From Candidatus Spyradocola sp. (GTDB lineage Bacteria > Bacillota > Clostridia > Christensenellales > UBA1750), in NCBI GenBank assembly GCA_034113365.1, contig JAXEXP010000158.1, positions 1,759 through 65,758 of the forward strand: a stretch of 64,000 bases of DNA, in the 5' to 3' direction. Position 1 is the stretch's first letter. Each line of letters opens with the position of its first letter. Both the position numbers and the translations under genes were made by a program. The notes under the pieces are model-generated. The model made no database searches. It worked only from the letters and a program-made list of their open reading frames with translations, and was not told the origin of the DNA. Shown here one piece after another: positions 42,461 to 56,882 of the stretch.

Positions 42461-44200
42461 TTACTCGACGTCCTGCAGAGCGTCGTAGCCCTCTTCGCCG
42501 GTGCGGACCTTGACGACGTTCTCCACGTCGTAGACGAAGATCTTGCCGTCGCCGATGTTGCCGGTGTAGAGCACCTTCTTGGCGGTCTCGATGACGGAGC
42601 GGACAGGCACCTTGCTCACCACGATGTCCACCTGCACCTTGGGCAGCAGGCTGGGCTCGATCTGGACGCCGCGGTAGTACTCGGTGGCGCCCTTCTGCAT
42701 GCCGCAGCCCAGCACGTGGGACACGGTCATGCCGGTGATGCCGATGTTCATCATGGCGTTCTTGAGCGACTCGAGGCGGGCCTCCTTGCAGAGGATCTCG
42801 ACCTTGGTCAGCTTCACGCCATCGGCGCGAACGGGGCTCTCGTAGGCGGGAACGGACTTGACCTCCACGGCCTCGGCGACGGGAACGGTGCCAGTGACCA
42901 TGACGGGGGCGTCGTCCATGATGTCCTCAGGCAGGGTGGCAAAGCCGGCGTAGGCGCTGGGCAGGCCGTGCTCGGTGGCATCCAGACCAGTGAGCTCCTC
43001 CTCGCGGGAGACGCGCAGGCCGACGATTGCCTTGATGACCAGGAAGGTGATGGTGATGGTGACGGCCGTCCAGGCGGCTACGGACAGCACGCCCAGCGCC
43101 TGCAGGCCCAGCTGCGTCAGGCCGCCGCCATAGAACAGGCCATTGAACTTGATGGCGCCGGACTCAAGCTGGCGGGCGAATGCGGGAGCGGTATCGGTGG
43201 CGAACAGGCCGACGGCCAGCGTGCCCCAGATGCCGTTGAATGCGTGGACGGCGACCGCGCCGACGGGGTCGTCGATGTGCAGCACATGATCGAGGAACCA
43301 GACGCCGAACACGACCAGCAGGCCGGCGACCGCGCCGATGACGGCGGCGCCCGCAGCGTCGGTCACGTCACAGCCGGCGGTGATGGCCACAAGGCCGGCC
43401 AGCGAGGCGTTAAGCGACATGGAGACATCGGGCTTGCCGTACTTGACCCAGGTAAAGATCATGGTGACGACGGTGGCGACGGCAGGCGCCACGGTGGTGG
43501 TCAGGAAGATGGAGCCCAGCTCCTCGACGGTCTGGGCGGCAGCACCGTTGAAGCCGTACCAGCCCAGCCACAGGATGAACACGCCCAGCGCGCCCAGCGC
43601 GAGGCTATGGCCGGGGAAGGCGTTGACCTTGACGACCTTGCCCTTTTCATCCTTCTTGAACTTGCCGATTCTCGGCCCAAGGATCTTGGCGCCGATCAGC
43701 GCGCTCAGGCCGCCGACCATGTGGATGGCGCAGGAGCCGGCAAAGTCGTGGAAGCCCAGCTCGGCCAGCCAGCCGCCGCCCCAGATCCAGTGCGCCTCGA
43801 TGGGGTAGATCAGCGCGGAGATGACCGCGGAGTAGATGCAGTAGGACAGGAACTTGGTGCGCTCGGCCATCGCGCCGGAGACGATGGTGGCGGTGGTGGC
43901 GCAGAACACAAGGTTGAACACGAAGTTCGACCAGTCGAAGTTCTCATAGGCGGTGAAGATGTCCAGGCCGGGCTTGCCGATGAAGCCGAACAGGTCCTCG
44001 CCCAGCAGCAGGCCGAAGCCGATGAGTACGAACACCACGGTACCGATGCAGAAGTCCATCAGGTTCTTCATGATGATATTGCCGGTGTTCTTGATCCGGG
44101 TGAAGCCCGCTTCGACCATCGCAAAGCCGGCCTGCATCCAGAACACGAGCGCCGCGCCGATCAGAAACCAGACGCTGAATACGATCGAATTCGCATCCAT
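42461..44200 (-). CDS. amt: Ammonium transporter (Amt) fused to a C-terminal P-II (GlnB/GlnK) domain
   Basis: 579 aa. The Amt core includes AGFAMVEAGF...AIHMVGG...AVHAFNGIWG. After a linker comes KVEILCKEARLESLKNAMMNIGITGMTVSHVLGCGMQKGATEYYRG...GDGKIFVYDV (P-II T-loop and B-loop). Confidence 0.9.
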   Translation of the reverse strand: MDANSIVFSVWFLIGAALVFWMQAGFAMVEAGFTRIKNTGNIIMKNLMDFCIGTVVFVLIGFGLLLGEDLFGFIGKPGLDIFTAYENFDWSNFVFNLVFCATTATIVSGAMAERTKFLSYCIYSAVISALIYPIEAHWIWGGGWLAELGFHDFAGSCAIHMVGGLSALIGAKILGPRIGKFKKDEKGKVVKVNAFPGHSLALGALGVFILWLGWYGFNGAAAQTVEELGSIFLTTTVAPAVATVVTMIFTWVKYGKPDVSMSLNASLAGLVAITAGCDVTDAAGAAVIGAVAGLLVVFGVWFLDHVLHIDDPVGAVAVHAFNGIWGTLAVGLFATDTAPAFARQLESGAIKFNGLFYGGGLTQLGLQALGVLSVAAWTAVTITITFLVIKAIVGLRVSREEELTGLDATEHGLPSAYAGFATLPEDIMDDAPVMVTGTVPVAEAVEVKSVPAYESPVRADGVKLTKVEILCKEARLESLKNAMMNIGITGMTVSHVLGCGMQKGATEYYRGVQIEPSLLPKVQVDIVVSKVPVRSVIETAKKVLYTGNIGDGKIFVYDVENVVKVRTGEEGYDALQDVE

Positions 44201-44240
44201 GAAAATCCATCCTTTCGTCTATCCATATATTGGGGTGGGT

Positions 44241-44311
44241 TATACAAAAAGGCGGGCAGGGCGTTCGCTTCCTTGAGCGGGGAAAGCAAATCGCCATGCA
44301 CGCCTTTGTGC
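44241..44311 (-). promoter_or_regulatory. Intergenic purF-amt attenuator: a hexaloop hairpin overlapping a long terminator
   Basis: Minus strand: GCAC-AAAGGC-GTGC (44311-44298). The terminator arms AAAGGCGTGCATGGC / GCCCTGCCCGCCTTT pair at 13 of 15 positions and are followed by TTTTGTAT. Confidence 0.45.
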
Positions 44312-44327
44312 CAAAGTGATGTGGGCG

Positions 44328-45740
44328 CTATTCAAACGCCGTTTTGTCTGCCTGCGTGGGCACGGGCCAGGGGTACTGGCCGGAGAAGCAGGCCTTGCAG
44401 AAGCCCAGTGCGCTGTCGCCCGCGATGGCCTCCACCTGGTCAAGGGGCAGGAAGCCCAGGCTGTCCGCGCCGATGCGGCTGCACAGCTCGTCGTGGGTGT
44501 AGAGCACGCTGGCCAGGTGGCTGCGGTCGTCGATGTCGGTGCCGTAGTAGCAGGGCCAGAGGAACTCGGGGGCGGAGATGCGGACGTGCACCTGCGCCGC
44601 GCCGGCCTTTTTGAGGAGCTCTACGATCTGGCGCATCGTGGTGCCGCGGACGATGGAGTCGTCCACCATCACCACGCGCTTGCCGCGCACGCTCTCCTTG
44701 AGCGGGGAGAGCTTGATGGACACGGCGCTTTCGCGGCCCGACTGCGTGGGCTGGATGAAGGTCCTGCCGATGTAGCGGTTCTTGACCAGGCCCTCGCCGT
44801 AGGGGATGCCGCTCTCCTGCGCAAAGCCGATGGCGGCCACCAGCCCGGAATCGGGCACGCCGATGACCAGATCGGCCTGCACGGGGTGGGTTCGCGCCAG
44901 TATCCTTCCGGCCTCGATGCGGGCGTTGTAGACGCTCTGTCCGTCGATGACGGAATCCGGCCGGGCAAAGTAGATGTGCTCGAATATGCACAGCGCGCAA
45001 TCCTTGCGTTCGCACTCGGGCGCCCAGCGAATGCTGCGCTGGCCCTGCTGCTCCACGACGAGCAGCTCTCCGGGAGCGAGGTCGCGCTCAAAGGTTGCGC
45101 CGATGGCGTCCAGCGCGCAGCTTTCGGAGGCGAAGAGCACGCTGTCCTCCAGCCTGCCCATGCACAGCGGGCGCATGCCCTTGCTGTCGCGGGCGGCGAT
45201 GAGCTTGCTGGGGCTCATCACCAGCAGGGAGAAGGAGCCCTCCAGCCGGGGGAGCACCCGGCGCACCGCTTCCTCGACGCTGGGGGTGTTCAGACGCTCC
45301 TTTGCGATGAGGAAGGCGATGACCTCGGTATCGGAGGTGCACTGGAAGATCGCGCCCTGCTGCTCCAGCTCCTTGCGCAGCACGGCTGCGTTGGAGATGT
45401 TGCCGTTGTGGGCGATGACCAGGCTGCCCTTGATGTAATCCACGCCCAGGGGCTGGATGTTGCGGCGGTTGTTGCCGCCGGTGGTGGAGTAGCGCACGTG
45501 TCCGATGGCGATGCCGCCCGGCATGCGGGAGAGCAGCGCCTCGTCGAACACCTCGTGCACCAGCCCCAGGTCCTTGTGAAGGTTGATCAGGTTATGGTCG
45601 TTGACTGCGATGCCGCAGGCCTCCTGGCCGCGGTGCTGCAGTGCGTAAAGCGCGTAGTAGACGGTCTTTGCGGTGTCGACGCTCTCTTCGTTGCGGTTGA
45701 AGATGCCGAACACGCCGCATTCTTCATGGATATGCTGCAC
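44328..45740 (-). CDS. purF: Amidophosphoribosyltransferase
   Basis: GTG start (RBS GGAGG). ...HEECGVFGIF (N-terminal nucleophile Cys) and the PRT motif VVMVDDSIVRGTT. Confidence 0.9.
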   Translation of the reverse strand: MQHIHEECGVFGIFNRNEESVDTAKTVYYALYALQHRGQEACGIAVNDHNLINLHKDLGLVHEVFDEALLSRMPGGIAIGHVRYSTTGGNNRRNIQPLGVDYIKGSLVIAHNGNISNAAVLRKELEQQGAIFQCTSDTEVIAFLIAKERLNTPSVEEAVRRVLPRLEGSFSLLVMSPSKLIAARDSKGMRPLCMGRLEDSVLFASESCALDAIGATFERDLAPGELLVVEQQGQRSIRWAPECERKDCALCIFEHIYFARPDSVIDGQSVYNARIEAGRILARTHPVQADLVIGVPDSGLVAAIGFAQESGIPYGEGLVKNRYIGRTFIQPTQSGRESAVSIKLSPLKESVRGKRVVMVDDSIVRGTTMRQIVELLKKAGAAQVHVRISAPEFLWPCYYGTDIDDRSHLASVLYTHDELCSRIGADSLGFLPLDQVEAIAGDSALGFCKACFSGQYPWPVPTQADKTAFE

Positions 45741-45755
45741 AGGCGCTGCCTCCGT

Positions 45756-47846
45756 TTACTGCACGCTGAACAGGATGTCGCCGTAGGTGGGGAAGGGCCA
45801 GTACTTCTTGGCCACGCACATCTCCAGCTCGTCGGCCACGGCGCGCAGCTCGTTCATCGCGGGGATGACGGCGTCGCGGTAGTAGACGGCCTCCTCGGGG
45901 GCGGAGGCGGCATGGGACTTGGCGCCGCACTCGGCCTTCTCCAGCGCGTCGATCTTCTCGGCGAGGCTGTCGGCCAGGCTGGAGATCTTGTCGCACAGCG
46001 CGGTCTCGGCCTTGGCGGTCAGGCCCAGCTCCTTCTTCTTGAGCATGGTATCGGTCAGCTCCGCGATGTTGGTCAGCGCGGCGGGGAGGATGTCCTTGCT
46101 CGCCATGTCCAGCATGGTCTGCGCCTCGATGTTGATGATCTTGGCGTAGTTCTCCATCAGGATCTCGTAGCGGCTCTTCATCTCGGTCTCGGTGAACACG
46201 CCGTGGCGGGAGAACATCGCGATGTTCTCGGGCTTGACGAAGTAGGGCAGCGCGTCGGGCGTGGTCTTGAGGTTGAGCAGGCCGCGCTTTTCGGCCTCGG
46301 TGACCCACTCGGCGGCGTAGTTGTCGCCGTTGAAGATGATGCGCTTGTGCTCGTGGATGGTGCGCTGCAGAAGCTGCGCCAGCGCGGTCTTGAAGTCCTC
46401 GGCCTTTTCAAGCTCGTCGGCAAAGAGCATCAGCTCGTCGGCCACGGCGGTGTTGAGCACGATGTTGGGGCCGGCGATGGAGAAGGTGGAGCCCAGGGAG
46501 CGGAACTCGAACTTGTTGCCGGTGAAGGCAAAGGGCGAGGTGCGGTTGCGGTCGGTGGTGTCCTTGGGGAAGTGGGGCAGCACCTTGACGCCGATCTCCA
46601 TCTCGGTCTTTTCCTTCTTGGTGTAGGAGGCGCCCTCCTCAATGGCCTCGAGGATGCCGGTCAGCTCGTCGCCCAGGAACATGGAGATGATGGCGGGCGG
46701 CGCTTCGTTGGCGCCGAGGCGGTGGTCGTTGCCCGCGGAGGCAACGGAGATGCGCAGCAGATCCTGATGCTCATCCACGGCCTTGATGACCGCGCACAGG
46801 AAGAGCAGGAACTGCGCGTTCTCGTACGGATCGGTGCCGGGCTCGAGCAGGTTCTTGCCGTCGTCCGTGGAGATGGACCAGTTGTTGTGCTTGCCCGAGC
46901 CGTTGACGCCGGCAAAGGGCTTCTCGTGCAGCAGGCACACCATGTCGTGGTGCGCGGCGACCTTCTTCATGGTCTCCATGGTCAGCTGGTTGTGGTCGGT
47001 GGCCACGTTGGTGGTGCCGAAGATGGGCGCCAGCTCGTGCTGCGCGGGGGCGACCTCGTTGTGCTTGGTCTTGGCCAGCACGCCCAGCTTCCACAGCTCC
47101 TCGTCCAGCTCCTTCATGTAGGCCGAGACGCGGGGCTTGACGGCGCCGAAGTAGTGGTCGTCCAGCTCCTGGCCCTTGGGGGGCTTGGCGCCGAACAGCG
47201 TGCGGCCGGTGTAGATCAGGTCGCGGCGCTTCTCGTAGACCGACTTGTCAATGAGGAAGTACTCCTGCTCGGGGCCGACGGTGGTGACCACGCGCTTGGA
47301 GGTGGTGTTGCCAAAGAGCTTGAGGATGCGCATCGCCTGGTTGCTCAGCTCCTCCATGGAGCGCAGCAGCGGGGTCTTTTTGTCCAGCACCTCGCCGGTG
47401 TAGGAGCAGAAGGCCGTGGGGATGCACAGGATGCCGTCCTTGATGAAGGCGTAGGAGGTGGGGTCCCAGGCGGTGTAGCCGCGGGCCTCAAAGGTGGCGC
47501 GCAGGCCGCCGCTGGGGAAGGAGGACGCGTCGGGCTCGCCCTTGATGAGCTCCTTGCCCGAGAACTCCATGATGACCTTGCCCTCGCCCGTGGGGCTGAT
47601 GAAGGAGTCGTGCTTCTCGGCCGTGATGCCGGTCATGGGCTGGAACCAGTGGGTAAAGTGCGTGACGCCCTTTTCGATGGCCCAGTCCTTCATGGCGTTG
47701 GCCACCACGTTGGCAACGGCGATGTCCAGGGTCTTGCCGTCCTGAATGGTCTTGCGCAGCGCCTTGTAGGTCTCCTTGGGCAGACGCTCGTGCATCACCG
47801 CATCGTTGAACACCATGCTGCCAAACAGCTCAGGTACGCTAGTCAT
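45756..47846 (-). CDS. glnN: Glutamine synthetase type III
   Basis: Start at ATG 47846 (RBS GAGGAGG). 696 aa. [30 protein letters not shown]...[12 protein letters not shown] is typical of type III GS. Confidence 0.9.
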
Positions 47847-47880
47847 ATCGCATTTCCTCCTCTTTCCACACAACAGTGCG

Positions 47881-47935
47881 ATAAAATGAAAAGACGCTGC
47901 GAGCCACTTTGCTTGGCTCACAGCGTCTTTGCTGT
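47881..47935 (-). promoter_or_regulatory. glnN leader: a hexaloop hairpin overlapping a strong intrinsic terminator
   Basis: Minus strand: ACAGC-AAAGAC-GCTGT (47935-47920). The terminator is AAGACGCTGTGAGCCA-AGCAAAG-TGGCTCGCAGCGTCTT (16 bp) + TTCATTTTAT. Confidence 0.55.
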
Positions 47936-47945
47936 CGATGGCGGA

Positions 47946-47974
47946 ATGATAACACCAAAGTTTTTTCCTGTCAA
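47946..47974 (-). promoter_or_regulatory. Putative glnN promoter
   Basis: Minus strand: TTGACA, 17-nt spacer, TATCAT. Confidence 0.5.
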
Positions 47975-48116
47975 CAGGTTTACACAATCTTAGCGTTCCG
48001 TCGTTAATTAATAAGATTTGTTGATTTTTCTATCGCAAAAACATTGATTTATAGTTAATTTCAGTGTATACTTAAGGTGCATACGAAATGCACAAAAGAA
48101 TAAAGGAGGTACTCAC

Positions 48117-48843
48117 ATGAAACGAATGACTTCTCTCATCCTCTCTCCTTCTTGTGCTTATGCCGTCCCTCCCCCTCACGACGTATGCTCAGACTATTCC
48201 TGCTAGCGCAACCGAAAACGTTGCATCCGTCACAAATTACGCACCCAGCCTTGACCATCAAGCTGCAGATCAGGCCGCGCTTGAGGGTGTGAATGAATTA
48301 AGCGCTAAGGCTAGGGAACTCGGGGTGCAAATCACGCCTTCCGCCCGTGTCATTGACACTGACACTTCGACGGTTCATCAGCTTGATTCTTACTCCGGCA
48401 CACAAATGCTGCAAAGAACGGAGTATACCGATCGCTCCGTTGACGAAACATATGTGACAACTGCAGCAACAACTTACTACGAAACCGGTTCTAAGTATGC
48501 CGGCGTAAACGTAACGATTTACGCACGAGTATATTGGACTCTGCATTACGACAGCTTGGGAGTTCCTAAAGTTAACTGTACTCATTCGGAGCACTGGGTT
48601 GTACAGTCTACAAATGCGGTGACGACGATGACCCTGTCCAACTACATCTGCACCACCTTCCCCGCTACATACGAAAATTCTCGCTATGTCAGCAGCCCGT
48701 CGAGCGGCACGCATTATTCCCTCAACAGTCCTTACACTGCTGACATTGCCTATCTGACCAAAACTGATGCACACTTCTGGGCTACTACAGAGGCATACAT
48801 TGATGGAAATTGCGTGGTTGTTGACATAAATCACAAGTTCTGA
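48117..48843 (+). pseudogene. Low-GC secreted protein gene with an apparent +1 frame disruption inside the signal peptide
   Basis: A strong RBS TAAAGGAGG precedes ATG 48117, which encodes MKRMTSLILS... This frame stops at 48204-48206. The long ORF (48154-48843) is in the +1 frame and continues as ...LLLVLMPSLPLTTYAQTIPASA. Joining the two gives a canonical signal peptide. The switch lies in the CT-rich tract 48141-48153. Confidence 0.55.
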
Positions 48844-48916
48844 TAACAACGACAGGACAGACTCTGTACTCCCATAGGGTTCGTTGATTGACCGCCCACT
48901 CATTAGGAGGATTTGC

Positions 48917-49818: not shown

Positions 49819-49847
49819 TTGACGGAACGCGCCGTAATGTGTATACT
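49819..49847 (+). promoter_or_regulatory. Putative promoter of the glutamate-synthase-like operon
   Basis: TTGACG, 17-nt spacer (ending in TGTG), TATACT. Confidence 0.5.
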
Positions 49848-49860: not shown

Positions 49861-49940
49861 GGTGAACAAAGGGGTTCACCGGATGGGCTGCGGGCAAAAT
49901 GCCCCGCGGCCCTTCCGGTGGGCTCCTTTTCATTGTTTTC
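49861..49940 (+). promoter_or_regulatory. Leader attenuator: a hexaloop hairpin mutually exclusive with a compound terminator
   Basis: GGTGAAC-AAAGGG-GTTCACC (49861-80). The terminator base stem GGGGTTCACCGG (49871-82) / CCGGTGGGCTCC (49915-26) encloses GGGCTGCGGG...CCCGCGGCCC and is followed by TTTTCATTGTTTTC. The RBS follows directly. Confidence 0.55.
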
Positions 49941-49955
49941 AAGGAGGTTTTCGGT

Positions 49956-51047
49956 ATGCTCAAAGAGGGGCAGGTCAGGATCCCGGCGGGCTGCGCGATC
50001 TCGGGCGTGATCTCAAAGTCCGGCCAAGGGATCTGCGGCAGCGAGATCGTGCGCTCCATCGCCACCATGCACGACCGGAGCAACGGCCTGGGCGGCGGCT
50101 TTGCGGGCTACGGCATCTATCCGCAGTACAAGGACTACTACGCCTTCCACATCTTCTACAACGACACCGCTGCGCGCAAGGCCTGCGAGGACTTTCTGGA
50201 GGAGCACTTTGACATCGTGAACCTGTCCAAGATCCCCACGCGCAAGATCCCCTCCATCGTCAACGAGCCGCTGATCTGGCGCTACTTCGTGCGGCCGCTG
50301 CACACCAAGCTCGAGGCCTCGCAGCTGGACGAGAAGGAGTTCACCTCGCAGTGCGTCATCCGCATCAATTCCGGCATTGAGGGGGCGTTCGTGTTCTCCT
50401 CGGGCAAGAATATGGGCGTGTTCAAGGCGGTGGGCTACCCCGAGGACGTGGGCGAGTTCTACCGGCTGGACGAGTATGAGGGCTACTGCTGGACGGCGCA
50501 CGGACGCTATCCCACCAACACGCCCGGCTGGTGGGGCGGCGCGCATCCCTTCTCGCTGCTGGATCTGTCGGTGGTGCACAACGGCGAGATCAGCTCGTAT
50601 GACGCCAACCGCCGCTGGATCGAGATGTACGGCTACAAGTGCACGCTGCTGACCGATACCGAGGTCATCACCTACATTATAGACTTCCTGGTGCGCAAAA
50701 AGCAGCTGACCTACGAGGAGATGGCGTCGGTGATCGCCGCGCCCTTCTGGTCGGCCATCGACAAGTACCCCGAGGCGGAGCGCAAGCGTCTGACCTACCT
50801 GCGCTCCATGTTCTCCTCGCTGCTGATCACGGGACCGTTCTCCATACTGGTGGGCTTCACCGGCGGCCTGATGGCGCTCAACGACCGGCTCAAGCTGCGC
50901 TCCATGGTCATCGGCGAAAAGGGCGACCGCGTCTACATCGCCAGCGAGGAGTGCGCCATCCGCGTGCTGGAGCCCGAGCTGGACGCGCTCTGGTCCCCCA
51001 AGGGCGGGCAGCCCGTCATCATCCACAGCAAAGGCGGTGTTCAGTAA
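49956..51047 (+). CDS. Class II glutamine amidotransferase domain protein (glutamate synthase domain-1-like)
   Basis: Start at ATG 49956 (RBS AAGGAGG). ...HDRSNGLGGGFAGYG...WTAHGRYPTNTPGWWGGAHPF...VVHNGEISSY. Confidence 0.85.
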   Translation: MLKEGQVRIPAGCAISGVISKSGQGICGSEIVRSIATMHDRSNGLGGGFAGYGIYPQYKDYYAFHIFYNDTAARKACEDFLEEHFDIVNLSKIPTRKIPSIVNEPLIWRYFVRPLHTKLEASQLDEKEFTSQCVIRINSGIEGAFVFSSGKNMGVFKAVGYPEDVGEFYRLDEYEGYCWTAHGRYPTNTPGWWGGAHPFSLLDLSVVHNGEISSYDANRRWIEMYGYKCTLLTDTEVITYIIDFLVRKKQLTYEEMASVIAAPFWSAIDKYPEAERKRLTYLRSMFSSLLITGPFSILVGFTGGLMALNDRLKLRSMVIGEKGDRVYIASEECAIRVLEPELDALWSPKGGQPVIIHSKGGVQ

Positions 51048-52553
51048 ATGGCCATCCAATACATCTATCCGGAATTTGAAGTGGTGCGCAACGCCGACCG
51101 CTGCATCGCCTGCCGCGTCTGCGAGCGGCAATGCGCCAACGAGGTGCATCACTACGACGGCGACCTCAAGAAGATGATCGCCGAGGAGAGCAAGTGCGTC
51201 TGCTGCCATCGCTGCGTCGCGCTCTGCCCCACCCACGCGCTCAAGATCGTCAAGAGCGACCACACCTTCCGCCCCAACACCAACTGGCAGGCGCAGACCA
51301 TCAACGAGATCTACCGACAGGCAGGCTCGGGCGGCGTGCTGCTGTCCTCGATGGGCAACCCGAAGGAATACCCCGTCTACTGGGACAAGCTGCTCATCAA
51401 CGCCTCGCAGGTGACCAACCCCTCCATCGACCCGCTGCGCGAGCCCATGGAGACGCGCATCTTCCTCGGCCGCAAGAGCGACGAGATCCGCCGCGACCCC
51501 GAGGGGAACCTCATCACCGACACCGCGCCGCAGCTGGAGCTGAACGTTCCCATCCTGTTCTCCGCGATGAGCTACGGCTCCATCTCCTACAACGCGCACG
51601 AATCGCTGGCGCGGGCGGCGCAGGCGCTGGGCACGCTGTACAACACCGGCGAGGGCGGCCTGCACGAGGACTTCTACCAGTACGGCGCGAACACCATCGT
51701 GCAGGTGGCGTCGGGGCGCTTCGGCGTGCACAAGGACTACCTGCAGGCGGGCGCGGCCATTGAGATCAAGATGGGTCAGGGCGCAAAGCCCGGCATCGGC
51801 GGCCACCTGCCCGGGGCCAAGATCGTGGGCGACGTATCGCGCACGCGCATGATCCCCGAGGGCAGCGACGCCATCTCCCCCGCGCCGCACCACGACATCT
51901 ACTCCATCGAGGATCTGCACCAGCTGGTGCATTCGCTCAAAGAAGCCACGCACTACAAAAAGCCCGTGATCGTCAAGATCGCGGCGGTGCACAACGTGGC
52001 GGCCATCGCGTCTGGCATCGCGCGCTCGGGCGCGGACATCATCGCCATCGACGGCTTCCGCGGCGGCACGGGCGCTGCGCCCACCCGCATCCGCGACAAC
52101 GTGGGCATCCCGATCGAGCTTGCGCTGGCGGCGGTGGATCAGCGGCTGCGCGGGGAGGGCATCCGCAACAACGTATCGCTGATCGTGGGCGGCTCCATCC
52201 GCTCGTCGGCGGACGTGGTCAAGGCCATCTGTCTGGGCGCGGACGCGGTCTACATCGCCACCGCCGCGCTGATGGCGCTGGGCTGCCATCTGTGCCGCTC
52301 CTGTCAGGCGGGCAAGTGCAACTGGGGCATCGCGACGCAGCGTCCCGAGCTGGTCAAGCGCCTCAACCCCGACATCGGCTCCGAGCGGCTGATCAATCTG
52401 GTGACCGCGTGGAACCACGAGATCAAGGAAATGATGGGCGGCATGGGCATCAACAGCATCGAGTCCATGCGCGGCAACCGGCTGATGCTGCGCGGCGTGG
52501 GGCTGACCGAGAAGGAGCTTGAGATCCTGGGCGTCAAGCACGCGGGCGAATAA
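51048..52553 (+). CDS. Glutamate synthase FMN-binding domain protein with an N-terminal 4Fe-4S ferredoxin module
   Basis: CIACRVCERQC...CVCCHRCVALCP, then ...FSAMSYGSIS...KMGQGAKPGIGGHLPG...HHDIYSIEDL...DGFRGGTGAAP. Confidence 0.9.
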   Translation: MAIQYIYPEFEVVRNADRCIACRVCERQCANEVHHYDGDLKKMIAEESKCVCCHRCVALCPTHALKIVKSDHTFRPNTNWQAQTINEIYRQAGSGGVLLSSMGNPKEYPVYWDKLLINASQVTNPSIDPLREPMETRIFLGRKSDEIRRDPEGNLITDTAPQLELNVPILFSAMSYGSISYNAHESLARAAQALGTLYNTGEGGLHEDFYQYGANTIVQVASGRFGVHKDYLQAGAAIEIKMGQGAKPGIGGHLPGAKIVGDVSRTRMIPEGSDAISPAPHHDIYSIEDLHQLVHSLKEATHYKKPVIVKIAAVHNVAAIASGIARSGADIIAIDGFRGGTGAAPTRIRDNVGIPIELALAAVDQRLRGEGIRNNVSLIVGGSIRSSADVVKAICLGADAVYIATAALMALGCHLCRSCQAGKCNWGIATQRPELVKRLNPDIGSERLINLVTAWNHEIKEMMGGMGINSIESMRGNRLMLRGVGLTEKELEILGVKHAGE

Positions 52554-52570
52554 AGGAGGGCAGAACGGAT

Positions 52571-52999
52571 ATGAAACGCATCTATGTAGAGGAAAAATGG
52601 TGTCTGGGCTGCCACCTGTGCGAGTACAACTGCGCATTTGCCAACAGCGGCAGCGACAGCATGGTCAAGGCTCTCAAGGACAAGCCCATCCATCCGCGCA
52701 TTCAGGTGGAGGAGCAGGACGGCGTGTGCTACGCGGTGTCCTGCCGCCACTGCACCGAACCGCTGTGCGTCAAGTCCTGCATCAGCGGCGCGCTGAGCCA
52801 GCAGGACGGCGCGATCTTCATCGACCCGGACAAGTGCGTGGGCTGCTACACCTGCGTGCTGGCCTGCCCCTACGGCTGCATCATGCCGACCGAGGAAGGC
52901 CCCGTGCAGAAGTGCGAGCTGTGCATGAAGAACGCCGCCGGCGCGCCCGCGTGCGTGGCGGGCTGTCCCAACCGCGCCATCGTGTATGAGGAGAGGTGA
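52571..52999 (+). CDS. 4Fe-4S dicluster domain protein
   Basis: CLGCHLCEYNC, CRHCTEPLCVKSC, CVGCYTCVLACP and CELC...C motifs. Confidence 0.85.
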   Translation: MKRIYVEEKWCLGCHLCEYNCAFANSGSDSMVKALKDKPIHPRIQVEEQDGVCYAVSCRHCTEPLCVKSCISGALSQQDGAIFIDPDKCVGCYTCVLACPYGCIMPTEEGPVQKCELCMKNAAGAPACVAGCPNRAIVYEER

Positions 53000-53003
53000 G
53001 CAT

Positions 53004-54233
53004 ATGAAATACGTCATCATCGGCAACTCCGCGGCGGCGGTGGGCGGCGTGGAGGGCATCCGCTCGGTGGACAAGGAGGGCAGCATCACGCTGATTTCCT
53101 CCGAGCCGCACCACACCTACTCCCGGCCGCTGATCTCCTACCTTGCCTGGGGCAAGACGGATGAGCCGCACATGAAATACCGTCCCGACGATTTCTACGA
53201 AAAGAACGGCGTCACGCCGCTGCTGGGCTGCACGGCGGTGTCCATCGACCGGCAGACCCGCACGGTGGCGCTGGCGGACGGCAAAAAGGTTCCCTATGAC
53301 AGGCTGCTGGTTGCGACGGGCTCCTCGCCGTTCGTGCCCCCGATGGAGGGGCTGGAAACGGTGGAGAACAAGTTCAGCTTCATGACGCTGGACGACGCCA
53401 GGGCGCTGATGGCGGCGCTTCAGCCCGACAGCCGCGTGCTGATCGTGGGCGCGGGCCTGATCGGCATGAAGTGCGCCGAGGGCATCCGCCACCTGTGCGG
53501 CGAAATGACGATCCTGGACCTTGCGCCGCGCATCCTTCCCGCCGTGCTGGACGAAGAGGGCTCGGCAATTGTGCAGAAGCATGTGGAGGCACAGGGCATC
53601 ACCTTCCATCTTTCCGACAGCGTGGCGCGCTTTGAGCCGCACACGGCGCACCTGAAATCGGGCGCGACGGTGGACTTTGACGTGCTGGTGCTGGCGGTGG
53701 GCGTGCGGCCCAATGCGCAGCTGGTGCAGGATGCGGGCGGCAAGGTGGCGCGCGGCATCGTGACCGACGAGCGCCAGTGCACGACGCTGGAGAACATCTA
53801 CGCGGCGGGCGACTGCACGGTGAGCCACGACATCACGAGCGGTTTGGACAAGATACTCGCGCTGCTGCCCAATGCGTACCTGCAGGGCGAGGTTGCGGGC
53901 AAGAACATGGCGGGCGGCGACGCGGTCTACGACAAGGCCATCCCGATGAACGCAGGCGGCTTCTTCGGGCTGCACATCGCCACCTGCGGCGACCTGCACG
54001 GCGAGGATTCCATCTCGCGCGAAAACGGCAGCTACAAGCGGCTGGTGGTGCGCGACGGCAAGCTTAAAGGCTTCATCCTCATCGGGGACGTGGCGCGCGC
54101 GGGCATCTACACGTCGCTGGTGCGCGAGCAGACGCCGCTGTGCTCCATCGACTTTGAGCTGATCAAGCAAAAGCCGCAGCTGATGGCCTTTGCCGCGGAC
54201 GCGCGCAGGAAGAAGCTGGGAGGTGTTGTGTGA
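53004..54233 (+). CDS. NAD(P)/FAD-dependent pyridine-nucleotide-disulfide oxidoreductase
   Basis: Start at ATG 53004. MKYVIIGNSAAAVG and the second Rossmann fold VLIVGAGLIGMKCAE. Confidence 0.85.
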   Translation: MKYVIIGNSAAAVGGVEGIRSVDKEGSITLISSEPHHTYSRPLISYLAWGKTDEPHMKYRPDDFYEKNGVTPLLGCTAVSIDRQTRTVALADGKKVPYDRLLVATGSSPFVPPMEGLETVENKFSFMTLDDARALMAALQPDSRVLIVGAGLIGMKCAEGIRHLCGEMTILDLAPRILPAVLDEEGSAIVQKHVEAQGITFHLSDSVARFEPHTAHLKSGATVDFDVLVLAVGVRPNAQLVQDAGGKVARGIVTDERQCTTLENIYAAGDCTVSHDITSGLDKILALLPNAYLQGEVAGKNMAGGDAVYDKAIPMNAGGFFGLHIATCGDLHGEDSISRENGSYKRLVVRDGKLKGFILIGDVARAGIYTSLVREQTPLCSIDFELIKQKPQLMAFAADARRKKLGGVV

Positions 54234-54958
54234 TGACGCGCATCAACGTAAAGGGGCTGGCGTTTCGCCAGGTCAATGAGAAGATCGAGCAGACGCACGA
54301 CCGCGACATCGTGCTGGAAAACGTGTGCGGGCAGCGCTACATCGGCGCGGGCTCCTCGGGGCGGCATCTGGTGATCGAGGGCGTGCCGGGCAACGCGCTG
54401 GGCGCCTACCTGGACGGCACGACCATTGAGGTCTCCGGCAACGCGCAGGACGCCACCGGCGACACCATGAACGACGGCGACATCATCGTAAACGGCTCCT
54501 CGGGCGACGCGACGGGCTATGCGATGCGCGGCGGACGCATCTTCGTGCGCGGCAGCGTGGGCTACCGCGCGGGCATCCACATGAAGGCCTATAAGGACAA
54601 GATCCCCGCGGTGGTCATCGGCGGCGAGGCGGGCTGCTTCCTGGGCGAGTACCAGGCGGGCGGGCGCATCGTGGTGCTGGGACTGGACACGGAGGGCCGC
54701 GCGCCGGTGGACGCGTTCTGCGCAACGGGCATGCACGGCGGCGTGATCTACCTGCGCAGCGACGTGCTGCCCGACGACCTGCCCCCGCAGGTGGTGGCGC
54801 ACCGCGCCGGCGCGGAGGATCTGGCCGACATCGAAAAGTACGTGCTGCCCTTCTGCCAGCACTTCGGGCTGGACGTCAAGAACGTTATGGATCACAACTT
54901 CTTTTGCCTGAAACCTAACACAAATAACCCTTACAAACAGCTTTACACGCAAAACTGA
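54233..54958 (+). CDS. GXGXG-motif protein (glutamate synthase domain-3-like)
   Basis: TGATG overlap with the upstream gene. Repeated beta-helix turns ...GVPGNALGAYLDGTTIEVSGNAQDATGDTMNDGDIIVNGSSGDATGYAMRGGRIFVRGSVGYRAG. Confidence 0.85.
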   Translation: MTRINVKGLAFRQVNEKIEQTHDRDIVLENVCGQRYIGAGSSGRHLVIEGVPGNALGAYLDGTTIEVSGNAQDATGDTMNDGDIIVNGSSGDATGYAMRGGRIFVRGSVGYRAGIHMKAYKDKIPAVVIGGEAGCFLGEYQAGGRIVVLGLDTEGRAPVDAFCATGMHGGVIYLRSDVLPDDLPPQVVAHRAGAEDLADIEKYVLPFCQHFGLDVKNVMDHNFFCLKPNTNNPYKQLYTQN

Positions 54959-54970
54959 TCGCAGTATAAT
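54942..54970 (+). promoter_or_regulatory. Promoter of glnA
   Basis: TTTACA, 17-nt spacer, TATAAT (54965-70). Confidence 0.6.
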
Positions 54971-55041
54971 TGGATGTAAATTTTTTAATGCCGTTTGGTT
55001 TCGGCAGGATCCCCCACGCGGGGCAATTAAGGAGGCGCACC

Positions 55042-56259
55042 ATGAGTTACACCGACACGGAGGTATTGCAGTTTGTGCGGGAGAACGACGTCAAGTTCAT
55101 CCGCCTGGCCTTCTGCGACATTTACGGCACGCTCAAGAACATCGCCATCATGGCCGAGGAGCTGCCGCGCGCGTTTGAATACGGCCTCGCATTCAACGCG
55201 GGGATGGTCCGGGGCTTTTCCTCCGCCACGCACGACGACATGGTGCTGCACCCCGACGCCTCCACGCTGGAGGTGCTGCCCTGGCGGCCGCAGACGGGCC
55301 GCGTGGCGCGCTTCTACTGCGACATCACCTACCCCGACGGCACGCCCTTTGAGCAGGACGGCCGGCAGATCCTGCGTCAGGCGCTGAGCGCGGCGCAGGA
55401 GCGGGGCATCACGGCGCGCATCGCGGCAAAGAGCGAGTTCTACCTCTTCCGCCTGGACGAAAACGGCGACCCCACCGCCATCCCGCACGACAACGCGGGC
55501 TTTCTGGACGTGGCGCCCCACGATCGCGGCGAGAACGTGCGCCGCGACATCTGCCTGAACCTGGAGCAGATGGGCATCCGCCCGATGTCCTCTCACCACG
55601 AGATGGGCCCCGGCCAGAACGAGATCGCCATCGCGCCCGAGGAGCCCATGGTGGCGGCGGATCACTGCGTGACCTTCCGCAACCTGGTGGGCACCATCGC
55701 CGCGCGCAACGGCCTGTACGCCGACATGGGCCCCAAGCCCATGCCCGAGCACGAGGGCAGCGGCTTCCACCTGAGCCTGAACGTGGTCAAGGACGGCCGC
55801 CCGCTGTTCGCGCCCGTGGACGGGCAGCTGACCCAGCCTGCGCAGTCCTTCATCGCGGGCATCCTCCATCACATGCCGGAGATGACGCTGTTCCTGAACT
55901 CCACGCCCGCCTCCTATGCGCGTTTGGGCAACCCCGACGCGCCCAAGGCGGTGGCCTGGAGTCAGCGCGGCCGCACGCAGATCGTGCGCGTGCCGCTGCC
56001 GCAGGGCGACAACGCGCGCGTGGAGCTGCGCTCGCCCGACAACCTGTGCAACCCCTACGTCGTCTACGCGCTGACGCTGCTGGCGGGCATGGACGGCATG
56101 GAGCGCGGCCTTGCGCTGCCGCCTGCCGACGCGCCCACGGGCGATGCGCTGCCCGATTCCATGCAGCATGCGGCGGAGCTTGCCGCGGCATCGTCTTTCC
56201 TTAAAAAGGTGCTGCCCGCACAGACGCTGCACGCCTACCTCACCCGCAGCCCCAACTGA
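55042..56259 (+). CDS. glnA: Glutamine synthetase, short type I-like
   Basis: Start at ATG 55042 (RBS AAGGAGG). ...VKFIRLAFCDIYGTLKNIAI...HHEMGPGQNEI...GSGFHLSL...NSYARLG...RSPD. Confidence 0.9.
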   Translation: MSYTDTEVLQFVRENDVKFIRLAFCDIYGTLKNIAIMAEELPRAFEYGLAFNAGMVRGFSSATHDDMVLHPDASTLEVLPWRPQTGRVARFYCDITYPDGTPFEQDGRQILRQALSAAQERGITARIAAKSEFYLFRLDENGDPTAIPHDNAGFLDVAPHDRGENVRRDICLNLEQMGIRPMSSHHEMGPGQNEIAIAPEEPMVAADHCVTFRNLVGTIAARNGLYADMGPKPMPEHEGSGFHLSLNVVKDGRPLFAPVDGQLTQPAQSFIAGILHHMPEMTLFLNSTPASYARLGNPDAPKAVAWSQRGRTQIVRVPLPQGDNARVELRSPDNLCNPYVVYALTLLAGMDGMERGLALPPADAPTGDALPDSMQHAAELAAASSFLKKVLPAQTLHAYLTRSPN

Positions 56260-56310
56260 CATCCCTTGTCCCCTCCGGGCTTTTAAGGCAGGAAAGGAGC
56301 GAACGCGCGC

Positions 56311-56880
56311 ATGGATAGCGCATTGCTGGTCTCCAGCAGCGACAAGGGCAGGCAGATGCTGCTGGAGCTGATGAACGGCTCGCAGCCCATGAAACTGACC
56401 ACCGCATCCAGCGGCAGCGAGGCCAGACGCCTGGCCGCTGAGATCGAATACGACCTGATCATCGTCAACGCGCCGCTGTCCGACGAATACGGCGACGGTC
56501 TTTCGGCCACCCTTTCGATGGATACCTCCGCAGGCATACTGCTGATCGTGCGCGCTGAGAACGCGGACGAGGTGGCGGAAAAGGTGGAGGACATGGGTGT
56601 GATGGTGCTGGGCAAGCCCATCGGCCGGGCGATGTTCTACCAGGCCATCAAGATGGTGACGGCCGCGCGGCGCAGGGTGCTGGGCCTCAAGTCCGAAAAC
56701 CTGCAGCTGCAGAAGAAGATCGACGAGATCCGCATGGTGGACCGCGCCAAGTGCGCGCTGATTCAGTATCTGTCCATGACGGAGCCGCAGGCGCACCGCT
56801 ACATCGAAAAGCAGGCGATGGACCGCAGGCAGACGCGCATGCAGATCGCACAGTCCATCATCAAAATCTACGAACCATAG
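56311..56880 (+). CDS. ANTAR-domain response-regulator-like RNA-binding antiterminator
   Basis: The receiver-like N-terminus is followed by a coiled coil and ...IDEIRMVDRAKCALIQYLSMTEPQAHRYIEKQAMDRRQTRMQIAQSII (ANTAR). Confidence 0.9.
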   Translation: MDSALLVSSSDKGRQMLLELMNGSQPMKLTTASSGSEARRLAAEIEYDLIIVNAPLSDEYGDGLSATLSMDTSAGILLIVRAENADEVAEKVEDMGVMVLGKPIGRAMFYQAIKMVTAARRRVLGLKSENLQLQKKIDEIRMVDRAKCALIQYLSMTEPQAHRYIEKQAMDRRQTRMQIAQSIIKIYEP

Positions 56881-56882
56881 CC

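What the first reader, a model, noticed from the sequence alone, without database searches (positions are those of the whole stretch)
42461..56880. Putative ANTAR regulon: three attenuators with the same design around a 14-kb nitrogen supercluster
Established knowledge is that ANTAR/NasR-type antiterminators bind leader hairpins with hexanucleotide loops in which A1 and G4 are critical, and binding prevents terminator formation. Three control points share one architecture. They are the glnN leader (loop AAAGAC), the purF-amt spacer (loop AAAGGC) and the gltB-like leader (loop AAAGGG). In each, the terminator 5' arm begins inside the hexaloop. The ANTAR protein is encoded right after glnA (56311-56880). 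The glnA leader itself has a strong promoter and no terminator. Two of the sites appear to have room for only one hairpin after the predicted transcription start, whereas the canonical model has two, which would be a variant mode. In addition, the 10-mer GACGGAACGC occurs upstream of both the glnN promoter (47993-48002, minus strand) and the gltB-like promoter (49821-49830). That is weak evidence for a shared DNA or RNA site.
Basis: partly seen in the sequence, partly recalled or inferred. Interest (0 to 1): 0.6.

Follow-up and report, generated by a model that had tools for sequence, protein, structure and literature searches.

The report
Nitrogen-gene attenuators with ANTAR hexaloop hairpins
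Three nitrogen-assimilation transcription units in this gut Clostridia genome each carry a terminator overlapped by a small conserved RNA hairpin, and the regulator protein encoded in the same cluster most likely binds that hairpin to allow read-through; this is a known kind of switch, here with one hairpin instead of the textbook two.

Summary
The glnN leader (47935-47886, -), the purF-amt spacer (44311-44246, -) and the gltB-like leader (49861-49930, +) each have a hexaloop hairpin (AAAGAC, AAAGGC, AAAGGG, closed by C-G). In each, the loop and 3' arm form the base of a strong intrinsic terminator. A REC-ANTAR protein is encoded after glnA (56311-56880).

The design is not chance. The element nnnC-AANGGY-Gnnn plus overlapping terminator recurs before orthologous glnN, gltB-like and amt genes in dozens of Clostridia and spirochaete MAGs. 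In relatives it also precedes asnA, asnB, pyrG, nadE, purA, gdhA and glnA. Stem changes are compensatory and include G-U pairs.

A covariance model built from published EutV-type ANTAR substrates ranks the three sites first, second and fourth in the 64-kb window.

The protein models onto RNA-bound EutV and keeps most of its RNA-contact residues. Its receiver has Asn in place of the phospho-acceptor Asp, so it is a pseudo-receiver.

A second hexaloop is absent in about 93% of related sites. The hairpin usually starts 5-12 nt after the -10 box.

The shared 10-mer is chance.

Verdict: a NitR/GnfR-type ANTAR nitrogen regulon. It is a new member of a known kind with a single-hexaloop layout.

The parts
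47946..47974 (-). glnN promoter, TTGACA-17-TATCAT with a TG extension
   Evidence: 11 of 12 matches. The -10 box ends 10 nt before the hairpin.
47920..47935 (-). glnN leader antiterminator hairpin ACAGC-AAAGAC-GCUGU (hexaloop, C-G closing pair)
   Evidence: hairpin alone -5.4 kcal/mol. Conserved as (A)CAGC-AAAGGC-GCUG(U) before glnN in 33 of 78 loci. Identical stem in L081. R1 hit of 18.0 bits.
47886..47930 (-). glnN leader intrinsic terminator. The 5' arm AAAGACGCUGUGAGCCA starts inside the hexaloop; the stem is followed by a U-tract
   Evidence: 17 pairs. The terminator state is -30.3 kcal/mol against -15.7 with the hairpin enforced.
47902..47913 (-). Possible weak second hexaloop AGC-AAAGUG-GCU in the apex of the glnN terminator. 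Doubtful.
   Evidence: Aligned as P2 by the canonical model. Not conserved in L081 or in other glnN leaders.
45756..47846 (-). glnN, type III glutamine synthetase (696 aa, ATG at 47846)
   Evidence: Pfam GSIII_N, Gln-synt_C and Gln-synt_C-ter. 64-73% identity to 80 loci.
44328..45740 (-). purF-like amidophosphoribosyltransferase, lying between glnN and the amt attenuator
   Evidence: Pfam GATase_6/7 plus Pribosyltran.
44298..44311 (-). purF-amt spacer antiterminator hairpin GCAC-AAAGGC-GUGC
   Evidence: -3.8 kcal/mol. R1 local hit of 11.5 bits. (G/A)CAC-AANGGY-GUG(Y) occurs before amt in 13 related loci, 11 of them without their own promoter.
44246..44307 (-). purF-amt spacer intrinsic terminator (AAAGGCGUGCAUGGCG ... 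CGCCCUGCCCGCCUUUUU), internal to a glnN-purF-amt transcript
   Evidence: -41.3 kcal/mol, z -3.4. (-34.9 against -20.9 with the hairpin enforced). No promoter was found in the spacer.
42461..44200 (-). Ammonium transporter fused to a P-II domain
   Evidence: Pfam Ammonium_transp (392 bits) plus P-II (81.6 bits).
49819..49847 (+). Promoter of the gltB-like operon, TTGACG-17-TATACT
   Evidence: 10 of 12 matches. The -10 box ends 13 nt before the hairpin.
49861..49880 (+). gltB-like leader antiterminator hairpin GGUGAAC-AAAGGG-GUUCACC
   Evidence: -9.1 kcal/mol. Fully conserved in L081 while the inner terminator has diverged. 21 orthologues of the downstream gene carry (AU)GAAC-AAAGGY-GUUC(AU). 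R1 hit of 17.5 bits.
49868..49930 (+). gltB-like leader intrinsic terminator, 5' arm starting in the hexaloop, then UUUU
   Evidence: -58 kcal/mol, z -5.7. (-54.5 against -39.7 with the hairpin enforced).
49956..54958 (+). Split (archaeal-type) glutamate synthase genes: GATase_2 domain 49956-51047, Glu_synthase/FMN 51048-52553, Fer4 52571-52999, Pyr_redox_2 52986-54233, GXGXG 54230-54958
   Evidence: Pfam. Start codon checked. The same gene order ends in glnA-ANTAR in many loci.
54942..54970 (+). glnA promoter TTTACA-17-TATAAT; its leader has no terminator or hexaloop
55043..56259 (+). glnA, type I glutamine synthetase
   Evidence: Pfam Gln-synt_N plus Gln-synt_C. ATG at 55043 with an AAGGAGG ribosome-binding site.
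56311..56880 (+). NitR-like regulator: pseudo-receiver (Asn53 in place of the phospho-acceptor Asp), coiled coil and ANTAR domain
   Evidence: Pfam ANTAR 55.4 bits. Asn53 is invariant in 29 homologues and aligns with the Asp of Rv1626. AF2 pLDDT 92, TM 0.85 to RNA-bound EutV 6ww6_B. R141, R145, K147, E158, H162 and M170 align with EutV RNA-contact residues.
56883..56902 (+). Terminator ending the gltB-like/glnA/ANTAR operon; no hexaloop hairpin

Best explanation
The cluster is a nitrogen-assimilation regulon controlled after transcription initiation by the REC-ANTAR protein at 56311-56880. This protein resembles clostridial NitR and Geobacter GnfR.

Default state (inferred from energies). Each of the three control points makes an RNA in which a short hairpin competes with a terminator. 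The hairpin is a 4-7 bp stem closed by C-G, with loop AAAGNN. The terminator reuses the hairpin's loop and 3' arm as the base of its 5' arm. The terminator is about 14-15 kcal/mol more stable, so transcription stops by default.

Induced state (inferred). When the ANTAR protein is active, presumably under nitrogen limitation, its dimer binds the hexaloop hairpin as the hairpin emerges. G4 stacks on His162 and Met170 acts as the plug, as Tyr164 and Met172 do in EutV. Binding holds the loop and 3' arm away from the terminator's 3' arm. What remains is an inner hairpin 11-21 nt from the U-tract, which cannot terminate, so RNA polymerase reads through.

Wiring (shown by sequence).
- glnN and the gltB-like operon are gated right after their promoters.
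- amt is gated a second time inside the glnN-purF-amt transcript.
- glnA and the ANTAR gene get basal expression from an ungated glnA promoter.
- They also sit downstream of the gated gltB-like leader, with no terminator in between. This gives positive autoregulation.

Signal input (inferred). Only one hexaloop is used per site. The receiver domain cannot be phosphorylated, because Asn replaces Asp. Activity must therefore be set by a ligand or a partner protein, which remains unidentified.
For: Anatomy and energetics
- Searches give the structures. The terminator state against the hairpin-enforced state is -30.3 vs -15.7, -34.9 vs -20.9 and -54.5 vs -39.7 kcal/mol.

Conservation
- A scan of 161 sources (2.2 Mb) for a hexaloop hairpin plus a terminator reusing the loop and 3' arm found 144 sites with AA.G[GA]. 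loops against 44 in reversed-sequence decoys. For AAAGGC the counts were 55 against 5.
- With no constraint on loop sequence, only AANGGY loops are enriched.
- The 8-mer CAAAGG[CT]G has at least 3 more flanking pairs in 28% of 369 occurrences. Control 8-mers reach 4-9%.
- Stems are specific to gene class and vary by compensatory and G-U changes.
- 21 of 21 orthologues of the gltB-like first gene identified among the genes lying downstream of scanned sites carry the element; gltB-like genes without a scanned site were not counted. 33 of 78 glnN loci carry it.
- In the closest relative, L081, the hairpins are intact while the inner terminator sequence has diverged with compensation.

Link to ANTAR
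- The published consensus is SYAC-AAHGRH-GUDB / RRGY-AAHGDV-GCYY.
- Model R1, built only from Ramesh Fig. S2 sequences, gives 18.0, 17.5 and 11.5 bits at the three sites. These rank 1, 2 and 4 in 128 kb searched without filters.
- ANTAR genes sit in the flanks of site-bearing loci (odds ratio 10, Fisher p about 1e-4, not corrected for phylogeny).
- The ANTAR gene is typically the last gene of the attenuated split-GOGAT(-glnA) operon.
- The protein matches Pfam ANTAR, has TM 0.85 to RNA-bound EutV, and conserves the RNA-contact residues.

Regulon logic
- Downstream genes in relatives are asnA, asnB, pyrG, nadE, purA, gdhA, glnA, glnN, GOGAT and amt-PII. All use ammonia or glutamine.

Precedent
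- GnfR binds CAGGCAANGGCGCC overlapping terminators in Geobacter (PMC2995071).
- NitR induces GS and GOGAT under nitrogen limitation in Clostridium (PMC6316151).
Against: - No experiment was done. Binding, read-through and the nitrogen signal are all inferred.
- The published mechanism for EutV needs two hexaloops (PMC3369931; PMC8934654). These sites have one, so either the mode differs or a cryptic second element exists.
- About half of the site-bearing glnN loci show no ANTAR gene within 10 kb. It may lie elsewhere in those genomes, but whole genomes could not be checked.
- The co-occurrence statistic ignores phylogeny and synteny.
- Part of the loop (AAA) would pair with the terminator U-tract anyway, so not all loop conservation need reflect protein contacts.
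- Stem pairs 2-4 in the covariation count were selected for pairing.
Confidence: 0.77

Rival explanations
1. The regulator is the same ANTAR protein, but in this genome it works in the canonical two-hexaloop mode. The second hairpin would be hidden in the apex of each terminator: AGC-AAAGUG-GCU at 47913-47902 for glnN and CGCU-CAAGGA-AGCG at 44279-44266 for amt.
For: - The canonical model R1 aligns a full P1+P2 at glnN with 18.0 bits.
- The amt candidate has G4 and a 4-bp stem (read from the sequence).
- EutV needs both loops for antitermination.
Against: - The gltB-like site has only a 5-nt AAAAU apex loop without G4.
- The amt candidate has C at position 1.
- The glnN candidate is lost in the closest relative, L081.
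- Across relatives, only 5 of 96 sites have any A..G.. hexaloop in the inner region, and 13 of 96 have one upstream, which equals the 12% background.
- 65 of 70 R1 hits have one proper hexaloop.
Confidence: 0.12
2. The conserved hairpin-terminator elements are real attenuators, but another, unidentified RNA-binding factor or a metabolite reads them. The neighbouring ANTAR protein would have other targets.
For: - 18 site-bearing glnN loci have no ANTAR gene within 10 kb.
- No binding data exist.
Against: - Loop and closing pair equal the ANTAR consensus, and a model trained on eut substrates finds the sites.
- The ANTAR gene is embedded in the attenuated operon in many species.
- A 16-20 nt hairpin is too small for a riboswitch, and Rfam has no match.
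- The loops are GGC/GGU rather than the GGA that CsrA needs (my own knowledge).
Confidence: 0.06
3. The inverted repeat just downstream of the -10 box (for example ACAGC-N6-GCTGT) is a DNA operator for a repressor, not an RNA hairpin.
For: In 69 of 96 sites the repeat starts 5-12 bp after a sigma-70 type -10 box, a typical operator position.
Against: - The conserved part is the asymmetric spacer AAAGGC, while the arms vary.
- About 12% of the stem cells are G-U pairs, which make sense only in RNA.
- 11 of 13 amt sites have no promoter.
- Every site is in sense orientation and is reused by a terminator.
Confidence: 0.03
4. These are ordinary terminators whose A-tract happens to be preceded by a short complementary run. 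There is no regulation and the resemblance is chance.
For: - In the window alone, AAAGNN hairpins are no more frequent than in shuffles.
- 4-bp stems arise easily by chance.
Against: - Terminators sit between promoter and start codon of essential assimilation genes.
- Enrichment over decoys is strong and gene-class-specific conservation is clear.
Confidence: 0.02

Closest known systems
NitR of Clostridium saccharobutylicum NCP262 ('C. acetobutylicum P262'): glnA-nitR-gltAB cluster (Stutz et al. 2007, as cited in PMC6316151; also PMC4676874 for Clo1313_2030 of C. thermocellum)
   Same: - An ANTAR regulator is encoded directly after glnA in a Clostridia GS/GOGAT cluster.
- It is proposed to antiterminate GS/GOGAT genes under nitrogen limitation.
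- The C. thermocellum cluster Clo1313_2030-2036 likewise has a receiver+ANTAR gene in a GS-GOGAT gene cluster.
   Different: - I could not read the primary paper or compare sequences with NitR itself.
- The clostridial model includes an antisense RNA to glnA. None was looked for here.
- Here glnA's own leader is ungated, and the gates sit at glnN, amt and the split GOGAT.
GnfK/GnfR of Geobacter sulfurreducens (Ueki & Lovley 2010, PMC2995071)
   Same: - A REC-ANTAR protein antiterminates nitrogen genes.
- Its EMSA-supported site CAGGCAANGGCGCC is a GGC-AANGGC-GCC hexaloop hairpin that overlaps the terminator. This is nearly the same sequence as the glnN element here (CAGC-AAAGAC-GCUG).
   Different: - GnfR is phosphorylated by the kinase GnfK. 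The protein here has Asn at the acceptor position.
- Geobacter promoters are RpoN-dependent and the targets are nif genes. Here the promoters are sigma-70 type and the targets are assimilation genes.
EutV/EutW of Enterococcus faecalis and the dual-hexaloop ANTAR substrate (Ramesh 2012, PMC3369931; Walshe 2022, PMC8934654)
   Same: - Hexaloop with A1 and G4, a C-G closing pair, and a hairpin that overlaps the terminator's 5' arm.
- Protein fold (TM 0.85) and RNA-contact residues.
- Ramesh's genome search already listed hits before GS, GOGAT, amt and P-II genes in Firmicutes.
   Different: - EutV substrates have two hexaloop hairpins and need both. This class has one, at the position of P2, at the extreme 5' end of the transcript.
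- EutV is a phosphorylated response regulator.
AmiR/AmiC of Pseudomonas aeruginosa and NasT/NasS, NasR
   Same: - ANTAR antiterminators of nitrogen-related operons.
- AmiR also has a non-phosphorylated pseudo-receiver, and a His at the position that stacks on G4.
   Different: - AmiR is controlled by sequestration by AmiC, NasT by NasS, and NasR by its own NIT domain. No such partner gene is evident here.
- Their leaders are described as dual hairpins.

Membership tests
ANTAR-target RNA (dual-hexaloop motif of Ramesh 2012) | Terminal hexanucleotide loop with A at position 1 and G at position 4 | tested here: met
   The loops are AAAGAC, AAAGGC and AAAGGG. The class consensus in relatives is AANGGY.
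ANTAR-target RNA (dual-hexaloop motif of Ramesh 2012) | Stem of at least 3 bp with conserved closing pairs (AC..GU or GC..GC) | tested here: met
   The stems are 5, 4 and 7 bp, all closed by C-G.
ANTAR-target RNA (dual-hexaloop motif of Ramesh 2012) | Two tandem hairpins (P1 and P2), both with A1/G4 hexaloops | tested here: not met
   In the window:
- glnN has only a weak 3-bp candidate.
- amt has a candidate with C at position 1.
- gltB-like has none.

In relatives:
- 65 of 70 model hits have one proper hexaloop.
- 13 of 96 sites have an upstream candidate and 5 of 96 an inner candidate, which is background level.
- The -10 box ends 5-12 nt before the hairpin.
ANTAR-target RNA (dual-hexaloop motif of Ramesh 2012) | The hairpin is mutually exclusive with an intrinsic terminator | tested here: met
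   The loop and 3' arm form the base of the terminator's 5' arm at all three sites.
ANTAR-target RNA (dual-hexaloop motif of Ramesh 2012) | Scores with a covariance model of known substrates (Ramesh used a 10-bit cut-off with their own model) | tested here: met
   R1, built from 28 Fig. S2 sequences, gives 18.0, 17.5 and 11.5 bits (E 0.01, 0.014, 0.44). The third is a local match to one hairpin only.
ANTAR-target RNA (dual-hexaloop motif of Ramesh 2012) | Bound by an ANTAR protein, with A1/G4-dependent antitermination | not testable with these tools
   Needs EMSA or ITC and in vitro or in vivo read-through assays.
ANTAR-domain antiterminator proteins (PF03861) | ANTAR domain above the Pfam threshold, and an ANTAR fold | tested here: met
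   55.4 bits against a cut-off of 27.3. AF2 pLDDT 92. Best superposition is on RNA-bound EutV 6ww6_B, TM 0.85, rmsd 2.6 A.
ANTAR-domain antiterminator proteins (PF03861) | Residues that contact the hexaloop in EutV (R142/K143, K147, K149, E160, Y164, M172) | tested here: met
   They align with R141, R145, K147, E158, H162 and M170, all invariant in 29 homologues. Tyr is replaced by His, as in AmiR.
Two-component response regulators (phosphorylated REC) | Phospho-acceptor Asp at the end of strand beta-3 | tested here: not met
   Asn53 aligns with the acceptor Asp of Rv1626. It is invariant in 29 homologues within the motif INAPLxDExG. The Pfam REC hit is below threshold (25.6 against 30.2). The domain is a pseudo-receiver.
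NitR (clostridial glnA-linked ANTAR regulator) | Encoded immediately downstream of glnA in a GS/GOGAT cluster | tested here: met
   glnA is at 55043-56259 and the ANTAR gene at 56311-56880. The same order is seen in L002, L003, L006, L024, L026, L052, L087, L091, L096, L102 and L127.
NitR (clostridial glnA-linked ANTAR regulator) | Sequence orthology to C. saccharobutylicum NitR | not tested
   The NitR sequence and the primary paper are not held.

The most novel reading that the evidence does not exclude
A single 5'-terminal hexaloop hairpin is sufficient for ANTAR antitermination in a large group of Clostridia, and in spirochaetes that share the system. The hairpin would be read by a pseudo-receiver NitR-type protein whose activity is set by a ligand or partner protein rather than by phosphorylation. 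Glutamine synthetase or P-II are speculative candidates for that partner. This would make it the global nitrogen regulator of these gut anaerobes and the minimal form of an ANTAR switch. It would contrast with the two-loop requirement shown for EutV.
Probability: 0.4. Interest if true: 0.6.

Novelty: new member of a known kind. Interest (0 to 1): 0.42.

Why it matters
- It gives a concrete, testable wiring diagram for nitrogen control in an uncultured gut Christensenellales lineage (closest named protein: Candidatus Spyradocola) and in many other Clostridia. The diagram has one regulator, one 16-20 nt RNA signature and about ten ammonia- or glutamine-using target genes.
- It shows that searches built on the dual-hairpin model under-describe this class. 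These sites score only 11-19 bits, and one model hairpin is filled with promoter sequence.
- A descriptor of one hexaloop plus a terminator that reuses it finds the sites cleanly.
- If one hexaloop really suffices, the kinetic 'successive binding' model derived from EutV is not general.
- The invariant pseudo-receiver points to an unknown nitrogen signal input.

Tried and rejected
- **Rfam.** A search at gathering thresholds over the whole window, and at E up to 10 over 44100-50100, found no family covering the sites.
- **The 10-mer GACGGAACGC.**
  - It has exactly two exact copies in the window.
  - One overlaps the -35 box and spacer of the gltB-like promoter. The other lies 20-30 nt upstream of the glnN -35 box.
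  - Neither is conserved in the closest relative, L081.
  - It occurs only 6 times in 160 loci, never at an attenuated promoter.
  - Rejected as chance.
- **A second hexaloop upstream or inside the terminators.** Searched directly and with the canonical model. Rejected as a conserved feature.
- **Leader peptide or ribosome-mediated attenuation.** The hairpin starts within a few nt of the transcription start, so there is no room.
- **The terminator after amt** (about 42390-42357, cgg-AAAGGG-tcg). It lacks the C-G closing pair and is an ordinary operon-end terminator.
- **The terminator after the ANTAR gene** (56883-56902). It has no competing hairpin.
- **A weak R1 hit at 13254-13306** beside a tRNA. 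It has irregular loops and was dismissed.
- **Technical slips corrected.**
  - My first reference for the gltB-like first gene was one base out of frame. This was detected and redone, and it explains the 'purFlike' labels.
  - A first count of glnA-ANTAR adjacency (7 of 52) was an artefact of fragmented tblastn hits. Inspection shows that the adjacency is common.
- **The Stutz 2007 NitR paper** is not held.

Full report
**1. What is in the window**

Pfam assigns the genes of 42461-58544 as follows.
- Minus strand: an ammonium transporter fused to P-II (42461-44200), a purF-like amidotransferase (44328-45740) and type III glutamine synthetase glnN (45756-47846).
- Plus strand: a five-gene split glutamate synthase, made of GATase_2 (49956-51047), Glu_synthase (51048-52553), Fer4 (52571-52999), Pyr_redox_2 (52986-54233) and GXGXG (54230-54958).
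- Then type I glnA (55043-56259), a receiver+ANTAR protein (56311-56880) and pyrG.

The nearest named homologue of the ANTAR protein comes from Candidatus Spyradocola, Christensenellales.

**2. The observation**

The three hairpins, loops and terminators are exactly as described.
- In each minimum-energy fold the terminator's 5' arm begins inside the hexaloop and continues through the hairpin's 3' arm.
- The terminator state is 14-15 kcal/mol more stable than the state with the hairpin enforced: -30.3 vs -15.7, -34.9 vs -20.9 and -54.5 vs -39.7 kcal/mol.
- The hairpins alone are worth only -5.4, -3.8 and -9.1 kcal/mol.
- The default is therefore termination, and a factor is needed to hold the hairpin.
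- With the hairpin held, the remaining inner hairpin lies 11-21 nt from the U-tract.

Sigma-70 type promoters precede the glnN and gltB-like hairpins by 10 and 13 nt, measured from the -10 box. The amt site has no promoter and sits 16 nt after the purF stop codon. It is therefore an internal gate in a glnN-purF-amt transcript. glnA has its own strong promoter and an unterminated leader. No terminator lies between 49930 and 56883 on the plus strand. glnA and the ANTAR gene can therefore also be read from the gated gltB-like promoter.

**3. Is it more than chance?**

Inside the window alone, AAAGNN hairpins are not enriched (8 against 6.2 +/- 2.5). The evidence comes from relatives. I fetched 80 glnN-centred loci from species genomes and 80 ANTAR-centred metagenome loci.
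- A descriptor scan looked for a hexaloop hairpin of at least 4 bp plus a downstream arm that pairs with the last three loop bases and the 3' arm, followed by a T-run. With no constraint on loop sequence, only AANGGY loops stand out. AAAGGC gave 29 hits, followed by AAAGGT, AACGGT, AACGGC, AATGGC and AAGGGC. There was an excess only at loop length 6.
- Over all 161 sources (2.2 Mb), AA.G[GA]. loops give 144 sites against 44 in reversed-sequence decoys. AAAGGC gives 55 against 5.
- The bare 8-mer CAAAGG[CT]G is flanked by at least 3 further pairs in 28% of 369 occurrences. Control 8-mers reach 4-9%.
- Stems are specific to gene class: (A)CAGC/GCUG(U) before glnN, (AU)GAAC/GUUC(AU) before the gltB-like gene and (G/A)CAC/GUG(Y) before amt. 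The window follows this rule exactly.
- Stem variants include CAAC/GUUG, UAGC/GCUA, CGGC/GCCG, CGGC/GUCG, GGAC/GUCC and AGAC/GUCU.
- About 12% of the selected stem cells are G-U pairs. This argues for RNA pairing rather than a DNA operator. Stem pairs 2-4 were selected for pairing, so the enrichment figures carry more weight than that covariation score.
- In the closest relative, L081 (81% ANTAR identity), both hairpins are intact while the inner terminator sequence has changed with compensation.

**4. The regulon**

In relatives the same element precedes asnA, asnB, pyrG, nadE, purA, gdhA and glnA, as well as glnN, the split GOGAT and amt-PII. All of these consume ammonia or glutamine. The elements also occur in Treponema and Sphaerochaeta MAGs (L019, L052, L064).

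**5. Who reads the hairpin?**

Four lines of evidence point to the ANTAR protein.
- **Consensus.** The published ANTAR substrate consensus is SYAC-AAHGRH-GUDB / RRGY-AAHGDV-GCYY (Ramesh 2012, Fig. S2). The amt and gltB-like hairpins are of the 'AC..GU' type and the glnN hairpin is of the 'GC..GC' type.
- **Model search.** Model R1 was built only from 28 published eut-type sequences. Searched over the whole window without filters, it scores the glnN, gltB-like and amt sites at 18.0, 17.5 and 11.5 bits. These are ranks 1, 2 and 4.
- **Gene context.** The ANTAR gene is the last gene of the attenuated split-GOGAT(-glnA) operon in many species. Site-bearing glnN loci are enriched for an ANTAR gene within 10 kb: 18/4 against 18/40, odds ratio 10, p about 1e-4, not corrected for phylogeny.
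- **Protein.** It is a competent ANTAR protein. Pfam gives 55.4 bits. The AF2 model has pLDDT 92 and fits RNA-bound EutV best (TM 0.85). The EutV residues that contact the hexaloop are R142/K143, K147, K149, E160, Y164 and M172. They align with R141, R145, K147, E158, H162 and M170, all invariant in 29 homologues.

Precedents exist.
- Geobacter GnfR binds CAGGCAANGGCGCC, which is the same hairpin overlapping terminators.
- Clostridial NitR is an ANTAR protein encoded after glnA and is said to induce GS/GOGAT on nitrogen limitation.
- Ramesh's Table S2 lists hits before GS/ANTAR, amt and GOGAT-like genes in Alkaliphilus, C. thermocellum, Carboxydothermus and Desulfotomaculum.

**6. One hexaloop, not two**

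The canonical model has P1 and P2, both required. This class differs.
- 69 of 96 high-confidence sites have a promoter whose -10 box ends 5-12 nt before the hairpin.
- Only 13 of 96 have any A..G.. hexaloop hairpin in the 50 nt upstream, which equals the 12% background. Those lie in promoter DNA. Only 5 of 96 have one in the inner region.
- When the canonical model is run on relatives, 65 of 70 hits have one proper hexaloop. 'GC..GC' sites are placed on model P2 with the -10 box region forced into P1. 'AC..GU' sites are placed on P1 with an arbitrary P2.
- In the window the glnN terminator apex can form AGC-AAAGUG-GCU and the amt one CGCU-CAAGGA-AGCG. The first is lost in L081, the second has C at position 1, and the gltB-like site has no equivalent.

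I therefore regard the single hexaloop, sitting where P2 sits in EutV substrates, as the working unit. Walshe 2022 showed that both ANTAR domains of one dimer grip a single hexaloop. That makes the single-loop mode structurally plausible.

**7. The sensor**

The receiver domain has Asn53 where Rv1626 has its phospho-acceptor Asp. Asn53 is invariant within an INAPLxDExG motif in 29 homologues of 53-81% identity. The protein is a pseudo-receiver, as AmiR is. What controls it is unknown. A ligand or a partner such as GS or P-II is speculation.

**8. The 10-mer**

The 10-mer is present twice, but at different positions relative to the -35 box. It is absent from L081 and from the attenuated promoters of all loci. 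It is chance.

**9. Verdict**

This is a well-supported, though not experimentally tested, NitR/GnfR-type ANTAR nitrogen regulon. The kind is known. This is a new member in an uncultured gut lineage. Two features deserve a test: single-hexaloop, 5'-terminal attenuators, and an invariant pseudo-receiver.

Noticed in passing
window 48000-48900: A low-GC island lies between the divergent glnN and gltB-like promoters. A strong ribosome-binding site and the ATG at 48117 give only 29 aa (MKRMTSLILSPSCAYAVPPPHDVCSDYSC*). A 229-aa ORF continues in another frame (48154-48843, no Pfam hit). It looks like a frameshifted secreted-protein gene or a sequencing error. In relatives the two attenuated promoters are back to back (for example L026, sites about 150 nt apart).
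   Followed up: partly
window 48917-49711: A high-GC ORF of 264 aa with no Pfam match also sits between the two nitrogen promoters. From the DNA it looks Leu/Ala-rich and membrane-like, but it was not translated in the correct frame.
   Followed up: no
window 56311-56880 (residue 53): The receiver domain of the ANTAR protein has Asn in place of the phospho-acceptor Asp. It is invariant in 29 homologues within the motif INAPLxDExG. The protein is a pseudo-receiver whose input signal is unknown.
   Followed up: partly
window 56883-56943: pyrG starts 40 nt after the ANTAR-operon terminator, with no recognisable promoter in between. In relatives (L019:76-1677, L034:7607-9214) pyrG has its own hexaloop attenuator.
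   Followed up: partly
window 47969-47992 (- strand); L081 glnN leader: The block AAGATTnTGTAAACCnGTTGACAG, just upstream of and including the glnN -35 box, is conserved with the closest relative while the flanks are not. It could be an UP element or a transcription-factor site.
   Followed up: no
window 16363-16953 and 13193-13266, 29217-29290: Gut-1 RNA (16363-16439, 62 bits), 6S RNA (16762-16953) and four tRNAs, all on the minus strand. Gut-1 fits a gut-associated organism.
   Followed up: no
L034:216-300; L019:9866-9950; L064:7889-8010: Two hexaloop attenuators lie in tandem before one gene (asnB in L034, glnN in L019 and L064). These would act as serial gates.
   Followed up: no
L019, L052, L064 (Treponema and Sphaerochaeta MAGs): The same hexaloop-terminator elements occur in spirochaete MAGs, and in L052 the ANTAR operon does too. 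This suggests horizontal transfer of the whole system.
   Followed up: no
window 42357-42390 (- strand): An ordinary terminator follows amt (AAAGGGtCGCCC...GGGCGgCCCTTTT). It superficially resembles the motif but lacks the C-G closing pair and any competing stem.
   Followed up: yes
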